Origin: Candidatus Planktophila sp.
Lineage (GTDB): Bacteria > Actinomycetota > Actinomycetes > Nanopelagicales > Nanopelagicaceae
Length of the DNA: 64,000 bases
NCBI GenBank assembly: GCA_030681675.1
Contig: JAUXRP010000002.1
Location: forward strand, 5,178 to 69,177
Direction: 5' to 3'
The translations under genes were made by a program, and so were the position numbers. Under the pieces are notes generated by a model. The model searched no databases. It saw nothing but the letters and a program-made list of their open reading frames with translations, and was not told the origin of the DNA. Shown piece by piece: positions 8,472 through 14,531 of this stretch (its first letter is position 1; each line of letters begins with the position of its first letter).

Positions 8472-9560
8472 ATGAAGAGTTCACCATTACATGAGAAACA
8501 CCTCACGCGAAATGCCAAAATGGCAGATTTTGGCGGTTGGTCTATGCCCATCGAATATCCGAGTGGGGGTGTTCTTGCCGAGCATGCTGCAGTACGCGAA
8601 CGTGTCGGACTCTTTGATGTTTCGCATTTAGGTAAAATCTCAGTTGTCGGGGTTGGGGCTTTAGAGTTTCTTAATACAGTATTTACTAATGACTTAGATC
8701 GAATTGGCGATGGTTCGGCTCAATACACTTTGCTGTGTACTCCTGAGGGTGGCGTCATTGATGATCTAATTGCATATCGAAACTCACCCGATAATCTATT
8801 TTTAGTACCAAACGCCTCAAATACCAGCGATGTCGTTGCGGTACTTCAATCACTCGCACCGGCTGGGATTACAGTTACGAATCTGCATAATGATTTCGCG
8901 GTCTTGGCTGTTCAAGGCCCACTAGCTGCCCACGTTATGCAATCACTTGGGGTCAATACCGAAATCGACTACATGGAATTTTCTCATGTGAAGGTTGGCG
9001 GCGCCGAGGTTATTCTCTGCCGAACTGGCTATACCGGCGAACTTGGCTATGAAATTTTGCCGAGAGTCGCTGATGCATCTGCAGTGTGGGATGCCCTAGC
9101 AAGTGCAGTTGAAGCTTTTGGTGGCTTAGTGTGCGGCCTAGGTGCTCGCGATACATTACGCACTGAGATGGGCTATCCACTTCATGGTCACGAGTTATCA
9201 CGAGAGATAACTCCGGTTCAGGCAAGTGCCTCATGGGCAATTGGCTGGGACAAACCTGGATTTATTGGCAGTGATGTTTTACGCGCTGAAAAGGCTAATA
9301 AACCAGCGTTGCGCAGCGTGGCGCTTAAATCTTTAGATCGCGGAATTCCGCGTGGACATATGCAGGTAAAAAGTGCATCGAGAGAGGCTTTAGGTGAAGT
9401 TACTAGCGGAACTTTTTCTCCAACTCTGAAAACTGGAATTGCACTCGCACTTCTTGCATCTTCTGTCAAAGTTGGGGATAAATTAATTATTGATGTTCGC
9501 GGGCGAGAATCACATGTAGAAGTTGTCAAGCTTCCTTTTGTACCTTCTCATGTTCGATAA
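8472..9560 (+). CDS. gcvT: Glycine cleavage system aminomethyltransferase T
   Basis: FGGWSMP, GLFDVSHLG, RTGYTGELGYE, GLGARDTLRTEMGYPLHG. Confidence 0.95.
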   Translation: MKSSPLHEKHLTRNAKMADFGGWSMPIEYPSGGVLAEHAAVRERVGLFDVSHLGKISVVGVGALEFLNTVFTNDLDRIGDGSAQYTLLCTPEGGVIDDLIAYRNSPDNLFLVPNASNTSDVVAVLQSLAPAGITVTNLHNDFAVLAVQGPLAAHVMQSLGVNTEIDYMEFSHVKVGGAEVILCRTGYTGELGYEILPRVADASAVWDALASAVEAFGGLVCGLGARDTLRTEMGYPLHGHELSREITPVQASASWAIGWDKPGFIGSDVLRAEKANKPALRSVALKSLDRGIPRGHMQVKSASREALGEVTSGTFSPTLKTGIALALLASSVKVGDKLIIDVRGRESHVEVVKLPFVPSHVR

Positions 9561-10344
9561 ATTCAATAGGCGTTAAAAAGGCTGCACGTACATATGTTCG
9601 CCGCAATGCCGTTAATACTGCGCGACCGGCAAAGAGAATTAATCCAGCAGTAAATACCGCTCGGGGAATATCCCAGGCCATTGCCGTGAGAAAGTGAAAT
9701 GTAAAAAAATTAGAGAGATTCTCTGAAATTGGTGCACCGGCTACGAAAGATAATTGAGTTTGTGAGCCAAGGGCCCAAGGCCAGAACTGTAGATCCATTA
9801 AAATTCCAAATAACTCACTTGCTAAAGCGCCATACATCATAAGCATTGCTATCTCGCCTTTTCCTCGAAGGCTTTTAGTTCCAGGCAGCAGACCTGCGAG
9901 CAGACCAATCCAGGCCGCGGCAAAGATTTGATAGCCCAACCAAGGGCCTAAGCCACCAGTTAAGAGGGCAGATACAAAGACTGAGATAAGCCCCAGCAAA
10001 AAACCAAAGGAGGGACCAAAGACTCTGGCGCTGAGTATGAGTAGAAACCACATCGGTTCAATTCCAAGAGCACCTGCGCCAAGCGGTCGCAAGGCAGCGA
10101 TCAAAGCCGAAAGAACGCCTAGCAGGGCAATAGATTTTGAATCTAAACCTGATCCAGATATTTCAATAATTGCCAACAGAGCGGCGATTGAAATCGCAAT
10201 CCAGAAAAAGATTTGAGTTCTAGGAAGGCTCTCACCGGTGTAAAAAAATGGCCAAATAAAACCTGCCGCACTTATTATGGATGCAATCGATAGAACTAAG
10301 GCATTGCGTCGAGAGAATTTTACAATATCGCCAGTTAACATCAT
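9526..10344 (-). CDS. ECF transporter S (substrate-binding) component, probably for cobalamin or its precursors
   Basis: Polytopic membrane protein (GIEPMWFLLILSARVFG, GLGPWLGYQ, WDIPRA). Last gene of the riboswitch-controlled ECF operon. Confidence 0.8.
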   Translation of the reverse strand: MMLTGDIVKFSRRNALVLSIASIISAAGFIWPFFYTGESLPRTQIFFWIAISIAALLAIIEISGSGLDSKSIALLGVLSALIAALRPLGAGALGIEPMWFLLILSARVFGPSFGFLLGLISVFVSALLTGGLGPWLGYQIFAAAWIGLLAGLLPGTKSLRGKGEIAMLMMYGALASELFGILMDLQFWPWALGSQTQLSFVAGAPISENLSNFFTFHFLTAMAWDIPRAVFTAGLILFAGRAVLTALRRTYVRAAFLTPIEFIEHEKVQKEA

Positions 10345-11951
10345 GGCGCGTTAGCTTCTAAGGCCGCTACGACATCGCGCACAGTCAACCAAGGTTGCGG
10401 TGACATCACTTTTGAAACTTGTGGCGCAAAGGCCGGGGATGAGAGTAAAACATCGATAGTTGGGCCGTCGGCAACGATATCTCCATCGGCGATGAAAATT
10501 ACACGCGTAGCAAGTTCAGCTACTAGCTCTACATCGTGAGTGGCAAGTACGACCGTGCGGTTAAAAGCCTTTGCGAACTCTAGGAGAATTCGCGTAAGTG
10601 ATTTCTTTGCCTCGTAATCTAAACCACGGGTTGGTTCATCGAGGATTAGAATTTTTGGATTTGCTGAGAGAACAATACTAAGAGCCAAACCCAGGCGTTG
10701 TCCCTCAGATAAATCACGCGGGTGTGCATGTAAGGAGATTCCTGGTACAAGTTGCGTCAATAATGTATATGTTGAACCCGGTGCGATTTCATTATCTCTA
10801 TCAGCCTGTTCACACTCTTGTGAGACACTCTGGGCATACAAAAGATCACTAGGCTCTTGCGGAATGTATCCAATTGTTGCTCTCCTAACTTTGCTGTGTA
10901 GATCTTTAGAATTTATTGAGTGAACGTGCACGTGTCCAGTTGCTCCATCACTCACGCCGGCGATTGATCGCAGAAGCGAACTCTTACCCGCACCGTTGCG
11001 TCCCATCACGGCAACGATCTCATTGTCGAAAATCGTCGCACTTACTTCATTGAGTGCAATTGTCGTTCCATGAACCATACTTAACTTCTTAATTTCGATG
11101 ACAGGAATCGCGCTTACAGGATTTTTATGTGGTGGACTAAGTGGGGTATTTGCTCGTACGTTCTCGGTCATTCGGCGCATGTCTCTGACGGATAACCCGA
11201 CTTCTTCAAGCCCAAGGGCTCTCGCTAAGTGCACAATGGGTGGTGCAATCGAGGATATTTTCATAATCTCTTCTGGTGTTCCGATAACGGAGTTACCGTC
11301 TCCACTAATATGAAGAATTCGATCGGCAAAACCAATGACGCGCTCTAACTTGTGTTCTGCGATTATGACGGTAAGGCTTAAATCATGTACTAAGCGGTGA
11401 AGAATCGAGAGAACTTCTTCGGCGGCAATTGGATCGAGTGCGCTCGTTGGCTCATCTAAAACTAAGACTTTAGGATGCAATACGAGGGCGCTAGCAATTG
11501 CTACACGCTGTTGCTCGCCACCACTTAACGTTGCAATTGTCCGAGCACGAAGTGAAGCTAATGAAAGCAAATCCAAAACCTCTTCGACACGTTTACGCAT
11601 CGTCTCAGGCGCTAGGTTGAGCGCCTCCATAGAAAATGCCAACTCCTCCTCAACGGTGTCGGCCACGAAGCCGTTGATTGGGTTTTGTCCGACAATTCCG
11701 ATGAGATGTGCCAAGCCTCCAGGTTTAACTTCGCGAGTCGAGAAACCATTGACACTGATGTCACCGGCAAGAATTCCTCCAGTGTGGTGGGGGACCAGAC
11801 CATTTATCAATCGCAGTAATGAAGATTTACCCGAACCAGTAGCTCCGATGACTAAAACTAACTCTCCTTCAGAGATTTCCAGCGTTAAATTTTCAATCAC
11901 TGTTCTTGTTGAGTTTGGATAGATGAGTGAAACATTAGAAAACTTAATCAC
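10341..11951 (-). CDS. ECF transporter fused double ATPase (A-A')
   Basis: Two Walker A motifs (GATGSGKS, GRNGAGKS), signatures LSGGEQQR and LSEGQR, two LDEPT. Confidence 0.92.
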   Translation of the reverse strand: MIKFSNVSLIYPNSTRTVIENLTLEISEGELVLVIGATGSGKSSLLRLINGLVPHHTGGILAGDISVNGFSTREVKPGGLAHLIGIVGQNPINGFVADTVEEELAFSMEALNLAPETMRKRVEEVLDLLSLASLRARTIATLSGGEQQRVAIASALVLHPKVLVLDEPTSALDPIAAEEVLSILHRLVHDLSLTVIIAEHKLERVIGFADRILHISGDGNSVIGTPEEIMKISSIAPPIVHLARALGLEEVGLSVRDMRRMTENVRANTPLSPPHKNPVSAIPVIEIKKLSMVHGTTIALNEVSATIFDNEIVAVMGRNGAGKSSLLRSIAGVSDGATGHVHVHSINSKDLHSKVRRATIGYIPQEPSDLLYAQSVSQECEQADRDNEIAPGSTYTLLTQLVPGISLHAHPRDLSEGQRLGLALSIVLSANPKILILDEPTRGLDYEAKKSLTRILLEFAKAFNRTVVLATHDVELVAELATRVIFIADGDIVADGPTIDVLLSSPAFAPQVSKVMSPQPWLTVRDVVAALEANAP

Positions 11952-12694
11952 GATAACCCCATAACGATTAGGCCAGTTGCAACAATGGCCGTGTCAACAG
12001 ATCTCCACCTAATAGGCCGATACCTACTGCGCTTACGACTGATTCCGTATCCGCGAGAATCCATAGCTGCCGCTAAATCCAATGAGCGGGCAAGGGATTC
12101 TTCTAAAAGGGGAATCGCTACGCGACGATACGAGGCAAATCCCTTGGTGCTCTGCCCGCGCAAACGTTGCGCAGTTCTTATTCTGGAAAAGCTAGTTACT
12201 AACTGGGGCAATATTGTGGTGGCGATGACAACTGAGACTCCAAACTCATACATATAGACCGGAAGCACACGCAATAGCCGATGAGGACTCGTAAGTGAGG
12301 CCGCTGCGCCAAAAATTACGATAATTGCGCAGATGATCAGACCCTCTGAAATCGCAGAAGAGATTCGTTCCAGCGTCACTGCTCCACCGATTCGAACTCC
12401 CGGCATCCAAGTGGGAAGGGGGATTTGAGGAAGTGAGAAAATCGTAGTTCCAGGTATTGGTACACCAATTACTACAGCGATATACGTTCGGATTACTAAA
12501 ATCCATGCAGCTAATTTCAACGTCCAGGTGAAGCTCTTACCCCAAGGCGCATCTTCGCGAAAAAAATAGACAATTACTCCGACGACACCCACTGAAGCGA
12601 TGGCAAAGGCTGGCGCATTAACACGTGCAACGCAGATTGCAACGGCGAATGACCAAATCCACCACGTCAGAGGGTGAAGCGGGGTTTTTCTCAA
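11948..12694 (-). CDS. ECF transporter T component (CbiQ/EcfT)
   Basis: Hydrophobic protein with AQRLRG and AMDSRGY Ala-Arg-Gly-type motifs. Overlaps the ATPase gene by 4 bp. Confidence 0.88.
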   Translation of the reverse strand: MRKTPLHPLTWWIWSFAVAICVARVNAPAFAIASVGVVGVIVYFFREDAPWGKSFTWTLKLAAWILVIRTYIAVVIGVPIPGTTIFSLPQIPLPTWMPGVRIGGAVTLERISSAISEGLIICAIIVIFGAAASLTSPHRLLRVLPVYMYEFGVSVVIATTILPQLVTSFSRIRTAQRLRGQSTKGFASYRRVAIPLLEESLARSLDLAAAMDSRGYGISRKRSRYRPIRWRSVDTAIVATGLIVMGLS

Positions 12695-12704
12695 TTGAGG
12701 TTTT

Positions 12705-13238
12705 TTACTTCTTCGGAATCAAAGCTGCTGGCGTTGAAATCTCGACACCACACTCTTTAGCCGGAAATCCATTAAGCCCACAAATTAGACCTGATGACGC
12801 CGCACGAATCTTTACGACTTGACCCAATACGTCGATTCCTTGGGAATCTAAAGCGGTACGTACGCATCTTTTAATAGTCTTAGCAGGTTTTTCGCCCTTT
12901 GGTGCCCATGCTTTTGAGCCGAACTCAATGACAAGTGCCACTCGTTTAGTATCCGGGTCGGCTTTTGTTGTGCCACATATGGCTTTGAAGTTAGGTTTAA
13001 TTTTTGGAGGAATTGATGGAACATCATCGCTACTAAACACAAAGGACCACCCCTCAACTGCGCCATTGGCAACATCGACGGTAGGTCCAGTCATCGCAGT
13101 GGTCCATTTAGTTGCACCTGGGGCCGCTTGAAAATAGCCCCAGTAACGCCAACCCTTAGTCGCACTGTGGGATGCGGGAATTGTGAAAACTGATGAAGTC
13201 AGAATGAAAAGAGTGATTAATAAAGCTTTGATTTTCAT
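12705..13238 (-). CDS. Secreted SCO2322-like protein of unknown function, first gene of the B12-riboswitch operon
   Basis: N-terminal signal peptide (MKIKALLITLFILTSSVFTIPASHS), GWRYWGYF and GAVEGWSF motifs, four Cys. Confidence 0.7.
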   Translation of the reverse strand: MKIKALLITLFILTSSVFTIPASHSATKGWRYWGYFQAAPGATKWTTAMTGPTVDVANGAVEGWSFVFSSDDVPSIPPKIKPNFKAICGTTKADPDTKRVALVIEFGSKAWAPKGEKPAKTIKRCVRTALDSQGIDVLGQVVKIRAASSGLICGLNGFPAKECGVEISTPAALIPKK

Positions 13239-13359
13239 TGAAGTGAAGCCTCTCGAATGTGAAGAGTCTCACAGGGGTAGCACCGCATAAGAGTGCAGAA
13301 ATCGCACTCAAATCAAGGACCACACCCCGCAAACCTCGGCGGGTGTCTGTCTCGTACGT

Positions 13360-13452
13360 CTCTTCATTAGGTAATCCGACTTCACGCTTAATACAGGCGC
13401 TTTACGGTTGCGGGTCAGCGTCGGAATTTCACCGAACTTCCCCTAATGAGAA
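13360..13452 (-). promoter_or_regulatory. Cobalamin (B12) riboswitch, compact form
   Basis: Minus strand reads TCTCATTAGG-GGAAGTTCGGTGAAATTCCGACGCTGACCCGCAACCGTAAAGCGC...GTGAAGTCGGATTA-CCTAATGAAGA. This has the conserved GGGAA, the P4 CGGTG..AAT.CCG stem, CCCGCAAC.GT, the B12 box and a closing P1 stem. Confidence 0.92.
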
Positions 13453-13529
13453 AACTATTAAGTTGTGGGTGAACCAAACCACATCGAACTGGAGTTGGCA
13501 ACTGGGCGCGCAGGACCTAAAGTCGTTGT

Positions 13530-14531
13530 ATGGAATATCGCCGCCTTGGAAGTACCGGAATGTATGTCTCTGAAATCGCCTATGGCAATTGGATTACTCA
13601 TGGATCACAAGTTGAAGCTGAAGCGGCAATCAAATGTGTCAAAGCCGCGCTCAATGAGGGGATCACAACATTTGATACCGCCGATGTGTATGCCGGCACT
13701 CGAGCCGAAGTAGTTTTAGGCAGAGCGCTAAAAGGCGTGCGCCGTGAGTCCTATGAACTTTTCACAAAGGTATATTGGCCAACAGGCCCAGGCAAAAACG
13801 ATCGCGGCTTATCGCGTAAGCACATCATTGAATCATGCAATGCATCGCTTAAGCGTTTGCAGACCGACCATATAGATTTATACCAAATGCATCGTTATGA
13901 TTTTGAAACCCCACTTGAAGAATCGTTAAGCGCCTTCGATGATTTAATTCGTGCGGGAAAAGTTCATTACATCGGTTTCTCTGAATGGAACGCCTCTCAG
14001 ATTTCAGCGGCGTTAGAGATTCAAGATGCACTTGGCTATAACCGTTTTGTTTCAAGTCAACCTCAATACTCAGCGCTGTGGCGCGTCATTGAAGCCGAAG
14101 TTATTCCACTCTCAATTAAGGAAGGGATAGGCCAGATTGTTTGGTCACCAATGGCCCAGGGCGTTCTCTCTGGAAAGTATGCACCAGGAAAGAAAGCTCC
14201 AGCAGGTTCTCGCGCAACCGATAAAAAGAGTGGCGCTGGAATGATTTCGGGTTGGATGAGAGATGAGGTGCTAACTGCCGTTGCTAAGCTAGCACCCGTT
14301 GCTAAAGAGGCTGGGTTAACAATGTCGCAAATGGCGATCGCGTGGGTATTACAAAATCCAAATGTTTCTTCAGCGATTATGGGTGCCACAAAGCCGTCAC
14401 AGGTAAAGGAGAACGTTAAAGCGTCGGGAGTGAAGTTAGATGCTTCGACGATGAAAGCGATCGACAAAGCTCTTGGAAAACTACCTGAAATGGATCCGGC
14501 TAAGAATATAAGTCCGAATCCTCGTGCTTAG
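13530..14531 (+). CDS. Aldo/keto reductase (Kv-beta/Tas-like)
   Basis: YRRLGSTG, FDTADVY, TKVYWP, IDLYQMH, WSPMAQG. Confidence 0.92.
   Translation: MEYRRLGSTGMYVSEIAYGNWITHGSQVEAEAAIKCVKAALNEGITTFDTADVYAGTRAEVVLGRALKGVRRESYELFTKVYWPTGPGKNDRGLSRKHIIESCNASLKRLQTDHIDLYQMHRYDFETPLEESLSAFDDLIRAGKVHYIGFSEWNASQISAALEIQDALGYNRFVSSQPQYSALWRVIEAEVIPLSIKEGIGQIVWSPMAQGVLSGKYAPGKKAPAGSRATDKKSGAGMISGWMRDEVLTAVAKLAPVAKEAGLTMSQMAIAWVLQNPNVSSAIMGATKPSQVKENVKASGVKLDASTMKAIDKALGKLPEMDPAKNISPNPRA

What the first reader, a model, noticed from the sequence alone, without database searches (positions are those of the whole stretch)
12705..13238. Secreted Cys-containing protein heading a B12-riboswitch ECF operon: candidate cobalamin-capture protein
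Seen: first gene after the cobalamin riboswitch, with a signal peptide, aromatic motifs GWRYWGYF and GAVEGWSF, and four Cys. It is 10 bp from ecfT-ecfAA'-S. Established: ECF S components normally bind substrate without a soluble binding protein. Inference: the motif pattern recalls the transcobalamin-like/DUF4430 beta domain, so this may be an extracellular corrinoid scavenger feeding the ECF.
Basis: partly seen in the sequence, partly recalled or inferred. Interest (0 to 1): 0.55.

Follow-up and report, generated by a model that had tools for sequence, protein, structure and literature searches.

The report
Minimal B12-catcher candidate on ECF importer
The first gene of the only vitamin-B12-switched operon in this freshwater actinobacterium encodes a small exported protein that looks like a rearranged B12-binding end of human transcobalamin. 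It is probably a stripped-down, untested helper that catches B12 outside the cell for an ECF importer.

Summary
ORF 12705-13238(-) encodes 177 aa with a cleavable signal peptide, both motifs and four conserved Cys. It lies 76 nt behind an AdoCbl riboswitch and 10 bp ahead of ecfT-ecfAA'-S.

It belongs to the named but uncharacterised SCO2322 family (NF040672, E 1.8e-44; PF28005). The AF2 model is confident (pLDDT 93). Its C-terminal half gives transcobalamin, haptocorrin and intrinsic-factor beta domains and a bacterial DUF4430 structure as the top five of 48,161 PDB chains, but at weak Z (3.2-4.3). Profile comparisons show SCO2322 is a circular permutant of unpermuted actinobacterial relatives (98.8% and 97.2%), which are weakly linked to DUF4430 (45-83%).

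All 31 Nanopelagicaceae loci scanned carry a B12 riboswitch upstream (23 above threshold). The genome has NrdJ and a corrinoid protein. CobS, CbiB and CobU were not found, and there is no second B12 riboswitch.

This window holds the most reduced form, with no alpha/alpha-toroid partner and no C-terminal membrane anchor. Corrinoid binding remains untested.

The scan had already found the SCO2322/ECF/riboswitch system on other DNA (33 notes), including the permutation. The acI ECF module was published in 2017, and B12 scavenging by transcobalamin-like proteins was predicted in 2007. Verdict: a new variant of a known kind.

The parts
13315..13468 (-). AdoCbl (cobalamin) riboswitch aptamer, leader of the operon. 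It is the only cobalamin riboswitch found in this genome.
   Evidence: RF01482 at 66 bits (gathering score 50), E 6.4e-10, full model 1-149. Whole-genome searches with RF01482 and RF00174 find only this site.
12705..13238 (-). SCO2322-family gene, 177 aa: the finding itself.
   Evidence: NF040672 at 1.8e-44. All homologues carry PF28005. AF2 pLDDT 93.3.
13161..13238 (-). Signal peptide, residues 1-26, with predicted type I cleavage near SHS|A.
   Evidence: Read from the sequence. Relatives have AXA-type sites 2-5 residues before the first conserved strand. The model shows a helix at 3-18 with lower pLDDT. Cleavage is inferred.
12960..13160 (-). N-terminal half of the domain, residues 27-93. 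It is a long beta-hairpin carrying GWRYWGYF and GAVEGWSF, and is the equivalent of the last two strands of unpermuted relatives and of DUF4430.
   Evidence: Strands 28-38 and 60-69. hhalign of unpermuted relatives, columns 77-146, against SCO2322 31-100: 98.8%, E 1e-16.
12735..12959 (-). C-terminal half, residues 94-168. It is a beta-grasp (SLBB-like) core with a helix and a following hairpin, and holds three of the four conserved Cys.
   Evidence: Folded alone, pLDDT 91.5. VIA top hits: 5no0 Z 4.3, 4kkj 4.2, 2bb6 4.1, 2pmv 3.9, 3u7z 3.2. hhalign to unpermuted relatives 97.2% and to DUF4430 82.5%.
11948..12694 (-). EcfT (CbiQ-type) transmembrane subunit.
   Evidence: PF02361 at 8.9e-10. Conserved next to SCO2322 in the loci examined, except two contig-edge loci (L073, L082) that stop before the ecfT position.
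10341..11951 (-). Fused EcfA-EcfA' ATPase.
   Evidence: Two ABC_tran domains at 7.4e-53. ECF_ATPase_1 and ECF_ATPase_2 at 1e-90 and 2e-88.
9526..10344 (-). ECF S component (272 aa), the presumed corrinoid-specific membrane subunit.
   Evidence: PF07155 at 27.3 bits against a cut-off of 26.7. Weak match to TIGR04518. Conserved at 41-62% identity in 15 actinobacterial loci. No sequence match in the PDB, CbrT included.

Best explanation
The gene encodes an exported, disulfide-stabilised single-domain protein of about 150 residues. It is a circularly permuted relative of the transcobalamin-type beta-grasp (SLBB/DUF4430) corrinoid-binding domain.

When intracellular AdoCbl is low, the riboswitch lets the operon be expressed. 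The protein is secreted and its signal peptide is removed. On the outer face of the membrane it binds complete cobamides at very low ambient concentration and passes them to the S component of the co-encoded ECF transporter (EcfT-EcfAA'-S), which imports them for NrdJ and a corrinoid methyl-transfer protein.

This lineage has lost both the alpha/alpha-toroid partner and the C-terminal stalk-plus-anchor found in most relatives. The protein must therefore bind the corrinoid on one face only, as the isolated transcobalamin beta domain can. It probably stays with the cell by docking non-covalently on the transporter.

Shown: gene structure, family membership, the permutation, riboswitch linkage, ECF linkage, the organism's dependence on imported B12, and the missing partner and anchor.

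Inferred: homology to the transcobalamin beta domain (moderate evidence), signal-peptide cleavage, disulfides, corrinoid binding, hand-over to S, and docking.
For: Family and conservation: NF040672 at 1.8e-44. W33, W45, C88, G107, C125, P159 and C163 are invariant in 134 sequences at 28-79% identity.

Fold: AF2 pLDDT 93.3. The C-terminal half, folded alone (pLDDT 91.5), has as its five best matches of 48,161 PDB chains the human TC beta domain 5no0 (Z 4.3, 63 aa, 3.1 A), haptocorrin 4kkj (4.2, 59 aa, 2.1 A), bovine TC 2bb6 (4.1), intrinsic factor 2pmv (3.9, 64 aa, 2.4 A) and the R. gnavus DUF4430 protein 3u7z (3.2). Generic beta-grasp folds follow. The same four carriers appear with the full model on residues 94-168.

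Permutation: the two halves align in swapped order to unpermuted relatives at 98.8% (E 1e-16) and 97.2% (E 2.8e-11). These relatives align colinearly with DUF4430 over both halves (45%, P 2e-4). DUF4430 aligns with SCO2322 124-166, covering the helix and the hairpin that follows it, at 79-83%. Burroughs et al. 2007 (PMC1796856) single out that hairpin as the main B12-contacting element of the transcobalamin clade.

Regulation: a riboswitch lies directly upstream here and in 31 of 31 Nanopelagicaceae loci scanned, 23 at the gathering score and 8 just below at E 4e-6 to 1.4e-3. Outside the family, 3 of 8 loci reach the gathering score and 3 more show partial matches below it.

ECF linkage: found in all 47 loci examined except two contig-edge loci.

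Need for import: NrdJ at 621 bits. A corrinoid protein is present. CobS, CbiB and CobU were not found in a 97.9%-complete genome. This is the only B12 riboswitch in the genome. Kang et al. 2017 (PMC5301498) report acI strains as B12 auxotrophs with a riboswitch-led ECF module.

Precedent for one-domain binding: the isolated human TC beta domain was crystallised with cyanocobalamin and with cobinamide (PMC5599065).

Precedent for the system: TC-like SLBB proteins in CbiO/CbiQ operons were predicted to scavenge B12 (PMC1796856).
Against: No biochemical data exist for any SCO2322-family protein; a full-text search for the name found no paper.

The structural matches are weak. Z is at most 4.3, and the tool warns that Z under 8 may reflect only a common arrangement. 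Foldseek E-values are 2-4. Pfam DUF4430 and Cobalamin_bind do not match. Family profiles find no PDB sequence. The link to DUF4430 rests on hhalign probabilities of 45-83%, which are not decisive.

Without the toroid partner the high-affinity two-domain sandwich of transcobalamin cannot form.

The window's protein has N58 where at least 90% of the family have Asp.

The one experimentally studied split transcobalamin-like plus ECF system, in L. sakei, was linked to heme uptake, not B12 uptake (bioRxiv 10.1101/864751).

An unanchored secreted protein would be costly for a planktonic cell unless it is retained, and retention is not shown.
Confidence: 0.6

Rival explanations
1. The protein does not bind the vitamin itself. 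It is an extracytoplasmic structural or gating subunit of this special ECF transporter, for example stabilising or capping the unusually long S component or helping its assembly.
For: The gene is always adjacent to ecfT and probably translationally coupled to it (10-bp gap here). The S component is long (272 aa) and unlike solved S components. The protein persists after loss of both toroid and anchor, as a core subunit might.
Against: The best fold and profile relatives are ligand-binding domains. The conserved exposed aromatics (W33, W45, W64) and the conserved hairpin fit a ligand site better than a pure scaffold; this is inference. ECF transporters for B12 work without such a subunit (ECF-CbrT, PMC5997447).
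Confidence: 0.15
2. It binds a different tetrapyrrole or metal species, such as heme (as proposed for L. sakei Lsa1839/1840), an incomplete corrinoid or cobalt. The riboswitch would then couple only expression, not substrate identity, to B12 status.
For: Deleting the L. sakei operon, which encodes transcobalamin alpha- and beta-like proteins plus an ECF, impaired heme uptake (bioRxiv 10.1101/864751). Burroughs et al. allow 'B12 or its precursors' (PMC1796856).
Against: An AdoCbl riboswitch is present at essentially every Nanopelagicaceae locus. CobS, CbiB and CobU were not found, so precursors would be useless to this organism. It needs complete cobamide for NrdJ, and no other B12-regulated uptake locus exists.
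Confidence: 0.1
3. It is a conserved exported protein of unrelated function that merely shares the transcript.
For: No function has been shown for any member. The structural similarity scores are low.
Against: The arrangement riboswitch-SCO2322-T-AA'-S is conserved across families of Actinomycetota at 30-69% protein identity. The family was not found away from ECF genes in any locus examined.
Confidence: 0.05

Closest known systems
SCO2322 family (NCBIfam NF040672, Pfam PF28005), as in the Streptomyces toroid-SCO2322-EcfT-EcfAA'-S operon
   Same: The window's protein matches the family HMM above the cut-off and has the same motifs and four Cys. Its gene has the same position before ecfT and the same riboswitch control.
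   Different: Streptomyces-type members have a low-complexity stalk and a C-terminal TM anchor with an RRR tail, and follow a prenyltransferase-like alpha/alpha-toroid gene. The window's protein ends 9 residues after the last strand (E165-168), at ...IPKK, and no toroid gene is found in the operon or the genome.
Beta domain of transcobalamin, intrinsic factor and haptocorrin, and bacterial DUF4430 (PF14478; PDB 5no0, 2bb6, 2pmv, 4kkj, 3u7z)
   Same: It has a beta-grasp core with a helix followed by a hairpin. These structures are the best structural matches of residues 94-168. There is motif-level and profile similarity. All are exported, and bacterial members sit in CbiO/CbiQ-type operons (PMC1796856).
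   Different: The last two strands (YW...GD.v.W) have moved to the N terminus, a circular permutation. Four conserved Cys are added. There is no Pfam-level match. The alpha domain is neither fused nor encoded separately.
Unpermuted PF28005 relatives in other Actinomycetota classes (for example L031:5957-6829:-, L034:6084-7112:+)
   Same: They carry the same two halves with the same motifs and Cys pattern, and a signal peptide.
   Different: The halves are in transcobalamin order, with the beta-grasp first. These relatives also have a stalk and a TM anchor.
Latilactobacillus sakei Lsa1836-1840 (bioRxiv 10.1101/864751)
   Same: It is an ECF S, AA' and T module co-encoded with exported transcobalamin-like proteins.
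   Different: There, both alpha-like and beta-like proteins are present, the order is unpermuted, and the experimental phenotype is heme uptake. No B12 riboswitch is reported in the part of the paper I read.
ECF-CbrT of Lactobacillus delbrueckii (PMC5997447)
   Same: It is an ECF-type importer of cobalamin and cobinamide.
   Different: It works with the S component alone and has no exported accessory protein. The window's S component shows no detectable sequence similarity to any PDB chain, CbrT included.

Membership tests
SCO2322 family (NF040672 / PF28005) | Match to the family HMM above the curated cut-off | tested here: met
   151.6 bits against a cut-off of 85, E 1.8e-44, model positions 3-143 of 144. 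The ESM Atlas fold match is to a PF28005 cluster at TM 0.87.
SCO2322 family (NF040672 / PF28005) | Conserved YRYW and DGxVEGW motifs and four Cys | tested here: met
   R31, W33, W45, G59, V61, G63, W64, C88, C125, C153 and C163 are present. The one exception is N58 in place of the near-invariant Asp.
SCO2322 family (NF040672 / PF28005) | C-terminal stalk plus TM anchor (typical of most members, but not part of the HMM) | tested here: not met
   There is no tail after the domain. The same holds in 7 of 13 Nanopelagicaceae genera that carry the gene.
Transcobalamin-like SLBB / DUF4430 (PF14478) | Match to the Pfam model | tested here: not met
   No hit at E<=1 for the protein or in the whole genome.
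Transcobalamin-like SLBB / DUF4430 (PF14478) | Profile-profile similarity to DUF4430 | tested here: inconclusive
   hhalign gives 79% (E 1.6e-5) and 82.5% (E 9.8e-6) over 42-43 columns. Through the unpermuted relatives it gives 45% over 76 colinear columns.
Transcobalamin-like SLBB / DUF4430 (PF14478) | Beta-grasp fold with the clade-specific hairpin after the helix | tested here: inconclusive
   TC, HC, IF and 3u7z are ranks 1-5 of 48,161 chains, but Z is only 3.2-4.3. Foldseek is not significant. The secondary-structure order fits.
Transcobalamin-like SLBB / DUF4430 (PF14478) | Colinear strand order | tested here: not met
   The order is circularly permuted relative to unpermuted relatives and to DUF4430.
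Transcobalamin-like SLBB / DUF4430 (PF14478) | Binds a corrinoid | not testable with these tools
   This needs purified protein and ITC, UV-vis or a structure.
Split transcobalamin-like pair (alpha/alpha toroid + beta) with ECF | Co-encoded alpha/alpha-toroid (prenyltransferase-like) protein | tested here: not met
   There is no room for it between the riboswitch and the divergent aldo-keto reductase gene. PF00432 and PF01122 give no genome hit, nor does a Nanopelagicaceae toroid protein used as query. The genome is 97.9% complete.
Dedicated ECF importer operon | EcfT, two EcfA domains and an S component encoded together | tested here: met
   PF02361, 2 x PF00005 with TIGR04520/04521-like matches, and PF07155.
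Cobalamin-riboswitch regulon | Cobalamin-clan aptamer on the same strand directly upstream | tested here: met
   RF01482 at 66 bits, 76 nt before the ATG. The element is conserved in relatives.

The most novel reading that the evidence does not exclude
In the most abundant freshwater bacterioplankton, a free, unanchored 16-kDa permuted transcobalamin-beta-like protein captures cobamides by itself, with no alpha-domain partner, and delivers them to an ECF S component. That would be the first ECF transporter that depends on a soluble substrate-binding protein. The protein would be either docked on the transporter or released as a hemophore-like 'cobalophore'.
Probability: 0.35. Interest if true: 0.7.

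Novelty: new variant of a known kind. Interest (0 to 1): 0.45.

Why it matters
ECF vitamin importers are textbook examples of transporters that need no soluble binding protein. A conserved, B12-switched exported partner would qualify that rule.

Nanopelagicaceae (acI) dominate lake bacterioplankton and cannot make B12, so this operon is probably how a large share of freshwater bacteria obtain the vitamin at picomolar levels.

The reduced form here has one small domain, no partner and no anchor. That makes it the simplest member to express and crystallise, and therefore the easiest way to test the 2007 prediction that bacterial transcobalamin-like proteins scavenge B12. It would also show how a single beta-type domain could suffice.

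The series from toroid plus anchor, to anchor only, to neither, within one bacterial family is also a clean example of stepwise genome streamlining.

Tried and rejected
- Local Pfam scan of the protein: no family. PF28005 is newer than the local copy.
- Foldseek against the PDB with the full model and with the C-terminal half: nothing at E<=0.001. TC entries appear only at E 2-4.
- VIA with the full model: the top hits are Cmr2 palm-like regions (Z 4.2-2.9, rmsd 3.8-5.3 A). I take these as a generic sheet arrangement.
- HMM searches of PDB sequences with the family profile A1 and the unpermuted profile A3: only low-complexity or chance hits.
- ESM Atlas by fold: only its own family. ESM Atlas by features: no usable hit.
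- Complex prediction, S component with mature SCO2322: score 0.14 and 0.08, below the mark of 0.32. This is no verdict, and is evidence neither for nor against binding.
- Sequencing runs: no RNA holder is listed. The 20 runs that hold the stretch or part of it are DNA assemblies only, so nothing can be said on expression.
- Expression platform of the riboswitch: no terminator-like site lies between the aptamer and the ATG, and the local fold is only z -2.1. The switching mechanism is left open.
- Pfam on the unpermuted relatives: no DUF4430 hit.
- Full-text search for 'SCO2322': no papers.
- An uncleaved signal-anchor was considered as an alternative to secretion. It is less likely, because relatives carry canonical AXA sites 2-5 residues before the first strand.

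Full report
OBSERVATION

On the minus strand an ORF runs from ATG 13238 to TAA 12705-12707 and encodes 177 aa. It begins with a typical signal peptide (MKIK, hydrophobic core, SHS|A). It carries GWRYWGYF at residues 29-36 and GAVEGWSF at 59-66, and has four Cys (88, 125, 153, 163).

An AdoCbl riboswitch lies at 13315-13468 on the same strand, 76 nt upstream (RF01482, 66 bits against a gathering score of 50, full-length match). Ten bases downstream starts ecfT (11948-12694, PF02361). Then come a fused ecfA-ecfA' (10341-11951) and an S component (9526-10344, PF07155 just above cut-off), each overlapping the previous gene by 4 bp. A divergent aldo-keto reductase gene (13530-14531, +) and a convergent gcvT (8472-9560, +) bound the operon.

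IDENTITY

The local Pfam copy gives nothing. NCBIfam places the protein in the 'SCO2322 family' (NF040672, 151.6 bits against a cut-off of 85, E 1.8e-44). All homologues in the 5.8-billion-protein collection carry the new Pfam entry PF28005. The nearest homologue, at 98% identity, is labelled Candidatus Planktophila, which is acI lineage, Nanopelagicaceae. A full scan of 1.84 billion cluster representatives finds 585 at E<=1e-3.

In an alignment of 134 diverse members (28-79% identity), W33, W45, C88, G107, C125, P159 and C163 are invariant. R31, G51, D58, G59, V61, G63, W64, P78, F84, R99, D105, L138, R145, G150 and C153 are at least 90% conserved. No paper in the library contains the name, so the family is named but uncharacterised.

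FOLD

AlphaFold2 with this alignment gives a confident model (pLDDT 93.3, pTM 0.83). It has a signal helix, a long hairpin (strands 28-38 and 60-69), then strand 97-105, strand 122-129, helix 134-139, a small hairpin (144-146 and 152-155) and strand 165-168.

Foldseek against the PDB finds nothing. The exhaustive aligner also gives only low Z. Four of its twelve rows, however, are the beta domains of haptocorrin, intrinsic factor and human and bovine transcobalamin, aligned to residues 94-168 at 1.9-2.6 A.

I therefore folded residues 90-177 alone (pLDDT 91.5). Of 48,161 chains the five best are:
- human TC beta domain 5no0 (Z 4.3)
- haptocorrin 4kkj (Z 4.2, 59 residues, 2.1 A)
- bovine TC 2bb6 (Z 4.1)
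- intrinsic factor 2pmv (Z 3.9)
- the Ruminococcus gnavus DUF4430 protein 3u7z (Z 3.2)

Generic beta-grasp folds (ubiquitin-like, SdhB N-terminal domain) follow at Z 3.0 or less. These Z values are below the level at which the tool advises trust, and Foldseek stays non-significant. The ranking is specific, but the evidence is moderate.

CIRCULAR PERMUTATION

A phylum-wide genome search with the family HMM gave many weak partial hits. In some genomes the two halves of the model matched in reversed order within one ORF. Reading those ORFs shows proteins with a signal peptide, then the beta-grasp half (…RAALVVDTG…YCV…GG.AVCML.GVG…DCF), then the aromatic hairpin half (YPDFWGYW…W…DGDVEGWSWG…PPP…F..VC), then a stalk and TM anchor.

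Profile-profile comparison confirms the swap. The second half of these proteins (columns 77-146) aligns to SCO2322 31-100 at 98.8% probability (E 1e-16). Their first half (columns 12-73) aligns to SCO2322's C-terminal half at 97.2% (E 2.8e-11).

The unpermuted order is that of DUF4430 and transcobalamin. Twenty-seven actinobacterial DUF4430 domains show …G.TVMDAL…V.T.YGGGFV..IDGL…DWFYYVNG…GA…V..GD.V.WDY. They align colinearly with the unpermuted relatives over both halves (45%, P 2e-4), and with SCO2322 124-166 at 79-83%.

This also explains why order-dependent structure aligners cover only half of the model. Burroughs et al. 2007 (PMC1796856) describe the hairpin after the helix as the clade-specific, main B12-contacting element. 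That region (R145, G150, C153) is conserved here. I derived it independently here.

CONTEXT ACROSS GENOMES

In Nanopelagicaceae, 42 of 61 sampled genomes and 13 of 18 genera carry the family. I examined 39 loci from these genomes. All lie in the same place, between the aldo-keto reductase gene and gcvT, and are followed by ecfT-ecfAA'-S where the contig allows.

Three forms exist:
- toroid gene plus anchored SCO2322 (genera g7, g16)
- no toroid, anchored SCO2322 (g2, g11, g14, g18)
- no toroid and no anchor (g1, which is the window's genus, plus g3, g5, g6, g9, g10, g13)

In a maximum-likelihood tree the toroid-less proteins form one clade (support 98/97) and the anchored toroid-less ones form a sub-clade (99/98). 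The root is at the midpoint only, and the order of anchor changes is unresolved.

Streptomyces-like loci have toroid-SCO2322-T-AA'-S. Two other actinobacterial families have anchored SCO2322 without a toroid (L018, L019).

In the window's genome (97.9% complete) I found no toroid protein with PF00432, with PF01122, or with a Nanopelagicaceae toroid protein as query.

RIBOSWITCH LINKAGE

Of 31 Nanopelagicaceae loci scanned, 23 have a cobalamin-clan aptamer at the gathering score directly upstream on the same strand. The other 8 have one just below it, at 30.7-48.6 bits and E 4e-6 to 1.4e-3. Outside the family, 3 of 8 loci reach the gathering score, 3 more show partial matches, and 2 show none.

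PHYSIOLOGY

The genome has a B12-dependent class II ribonucleotide reductase (NrdJ, 621 bits against a cut-off of 400). It also has a corrinoid protein (B12-binding_2 plus B12-binding) next to MTHFR-like genes. CobS, CbiB and CobU were not found. The only cobalamin riboswitch in the assembly is the one in this window.

This agrees with Kang et al. 2017 (PMC5301498). [quoted passage not shown] The passages I read mention only the ECF module, not this first gene. A 2025 study reports cobinamide salvage in a few Planktophila strains (PMC12817590). The genes for it were not found in this genome.

MECHANISM

The best reading is given under Best explanation. The protein would be a secreted, disulfide-stabilised, permuted transcobalamin-beta-like domain. 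It would bind complete cobamides outside the membrane and feed the ECF S component, and it is made only when AdoCbl is scarce.

One-domain binding has a precedent: the isolated human TC beta domain crystallises with cyanocobalamin and with cobinamide, and assembly with the alpha domain is Cbl-dependent (PMC5599065).

The mature protein here has neither anchor nor partner, and Nanopelagicaceae are monoderm plankton. I therefore infer that it is retained by docking to the transporter. The alternative is a released, recaptured carrier.

The rivals are a non-binding structural subunit, a different ligand (heme, as in the L. sakei system; bioRxiv 10.1101/864751), and an unrelated co-transcribed protein.

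COMPARISON AND NOVELTY

The protein is a member of the SCO2322 family. It works, by inference, like the transcobalamin-type SLBB proteins that Burroughs et al. predicted in 2007 to scavenge B12 next to CbiO/CbiQ transporters. It fails their Pfam model and their strand order.

The system has been met repeatedly by this scan: 33 notes in at least 31 genomes. What is particular here is the minimal form, a solo, unanchored domain, in an ecologically dominant B12 auxotroph. I rate it a new variant of a known kind, of moderate interest, whose main value is as the simplest experimental entry point.

USE OF UNPUBLISHED GENOMES

The phylum tallies include seven unpublished genomes (G234, G061, G108, G208, G299, G078, G180), which contribute weak partial hits. 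One of them (G061, locus L036) was read but was not used in any alignment. No conclusion rests on them.

Noticed in passing
G000 contig C13, locus L069:1222-3171 (outside the window): A 221-aa corrinoid protein (B12-binding_2 plus B12-binding) is followed by a DUF5981/MTHFR-C-like gene and an MTHFR-like gene, behind an IclR regulator. This looks like a corrinoid-dependent methyl-transfer module and would be a second B12 consumer beside NrdJ.
   Followed up: partly
window 13065-13067 (residue 58): The window's protein has Asn where at least 90% of the family, and 115 of 118 close relatives, have Asp in the DGxVEGW motif. Only its nearest relatives (P0001, P0005, P0038) share the Asn.
   Followed up: partly
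window 9526-10344 (-): The S component is long for its class (272 aa) and has no sequence match to any PDB chain, CbrT included. It has many invariant Gly, Trp and Pro positions across 16 actinobacterial orthologues (for example W31, P32, K70, R86, E96, W135, W188, W224, D225, R228). Its substrate pocket is uncharacterised.
   Followed up: partly
Nanopelagicaceae genomes G001, G007, G016 and others: 19 of 61 sampled genomes lack the SCO2322 family. These include all sampled members of five genera (g4, g8, g12, g15, g17), among them several complete 1.2-1.4 Mb genomes. How these obtain B12, or whether they keep the ECF module without it, was not examined.
   Followed up: no
L018 (G157) and L019 (G399), other actinobacterial families: The neighbourhood aldo-keto reductase / SCO2322-ECF operon / gcvT is kept beyond Nanopelagicaceae. 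L018 keeps both flanking genes and L019 keeps gcvT, which suggests an old, vertically inherited locus.
   Followed up: partly
L032:5813-6853:+, L033:5722-7011:+, L034:6084-7112:+: A second type of unpermuted relative matches the SCO2322 HMM with both halves in swapped order. It retains the 'GLLCAIDGFPATGCG' loop almost as in SCO2322, and may be the closest unpermuted sister of the permuted family.
   Followed up: partly
window 9526-9560: The 3' ends of the convergent S-component gene and gcvT overlap by 35 bp, and the same tight arrangement recurs in relatives. No terminator-like site was found between them.
   Followed up: no
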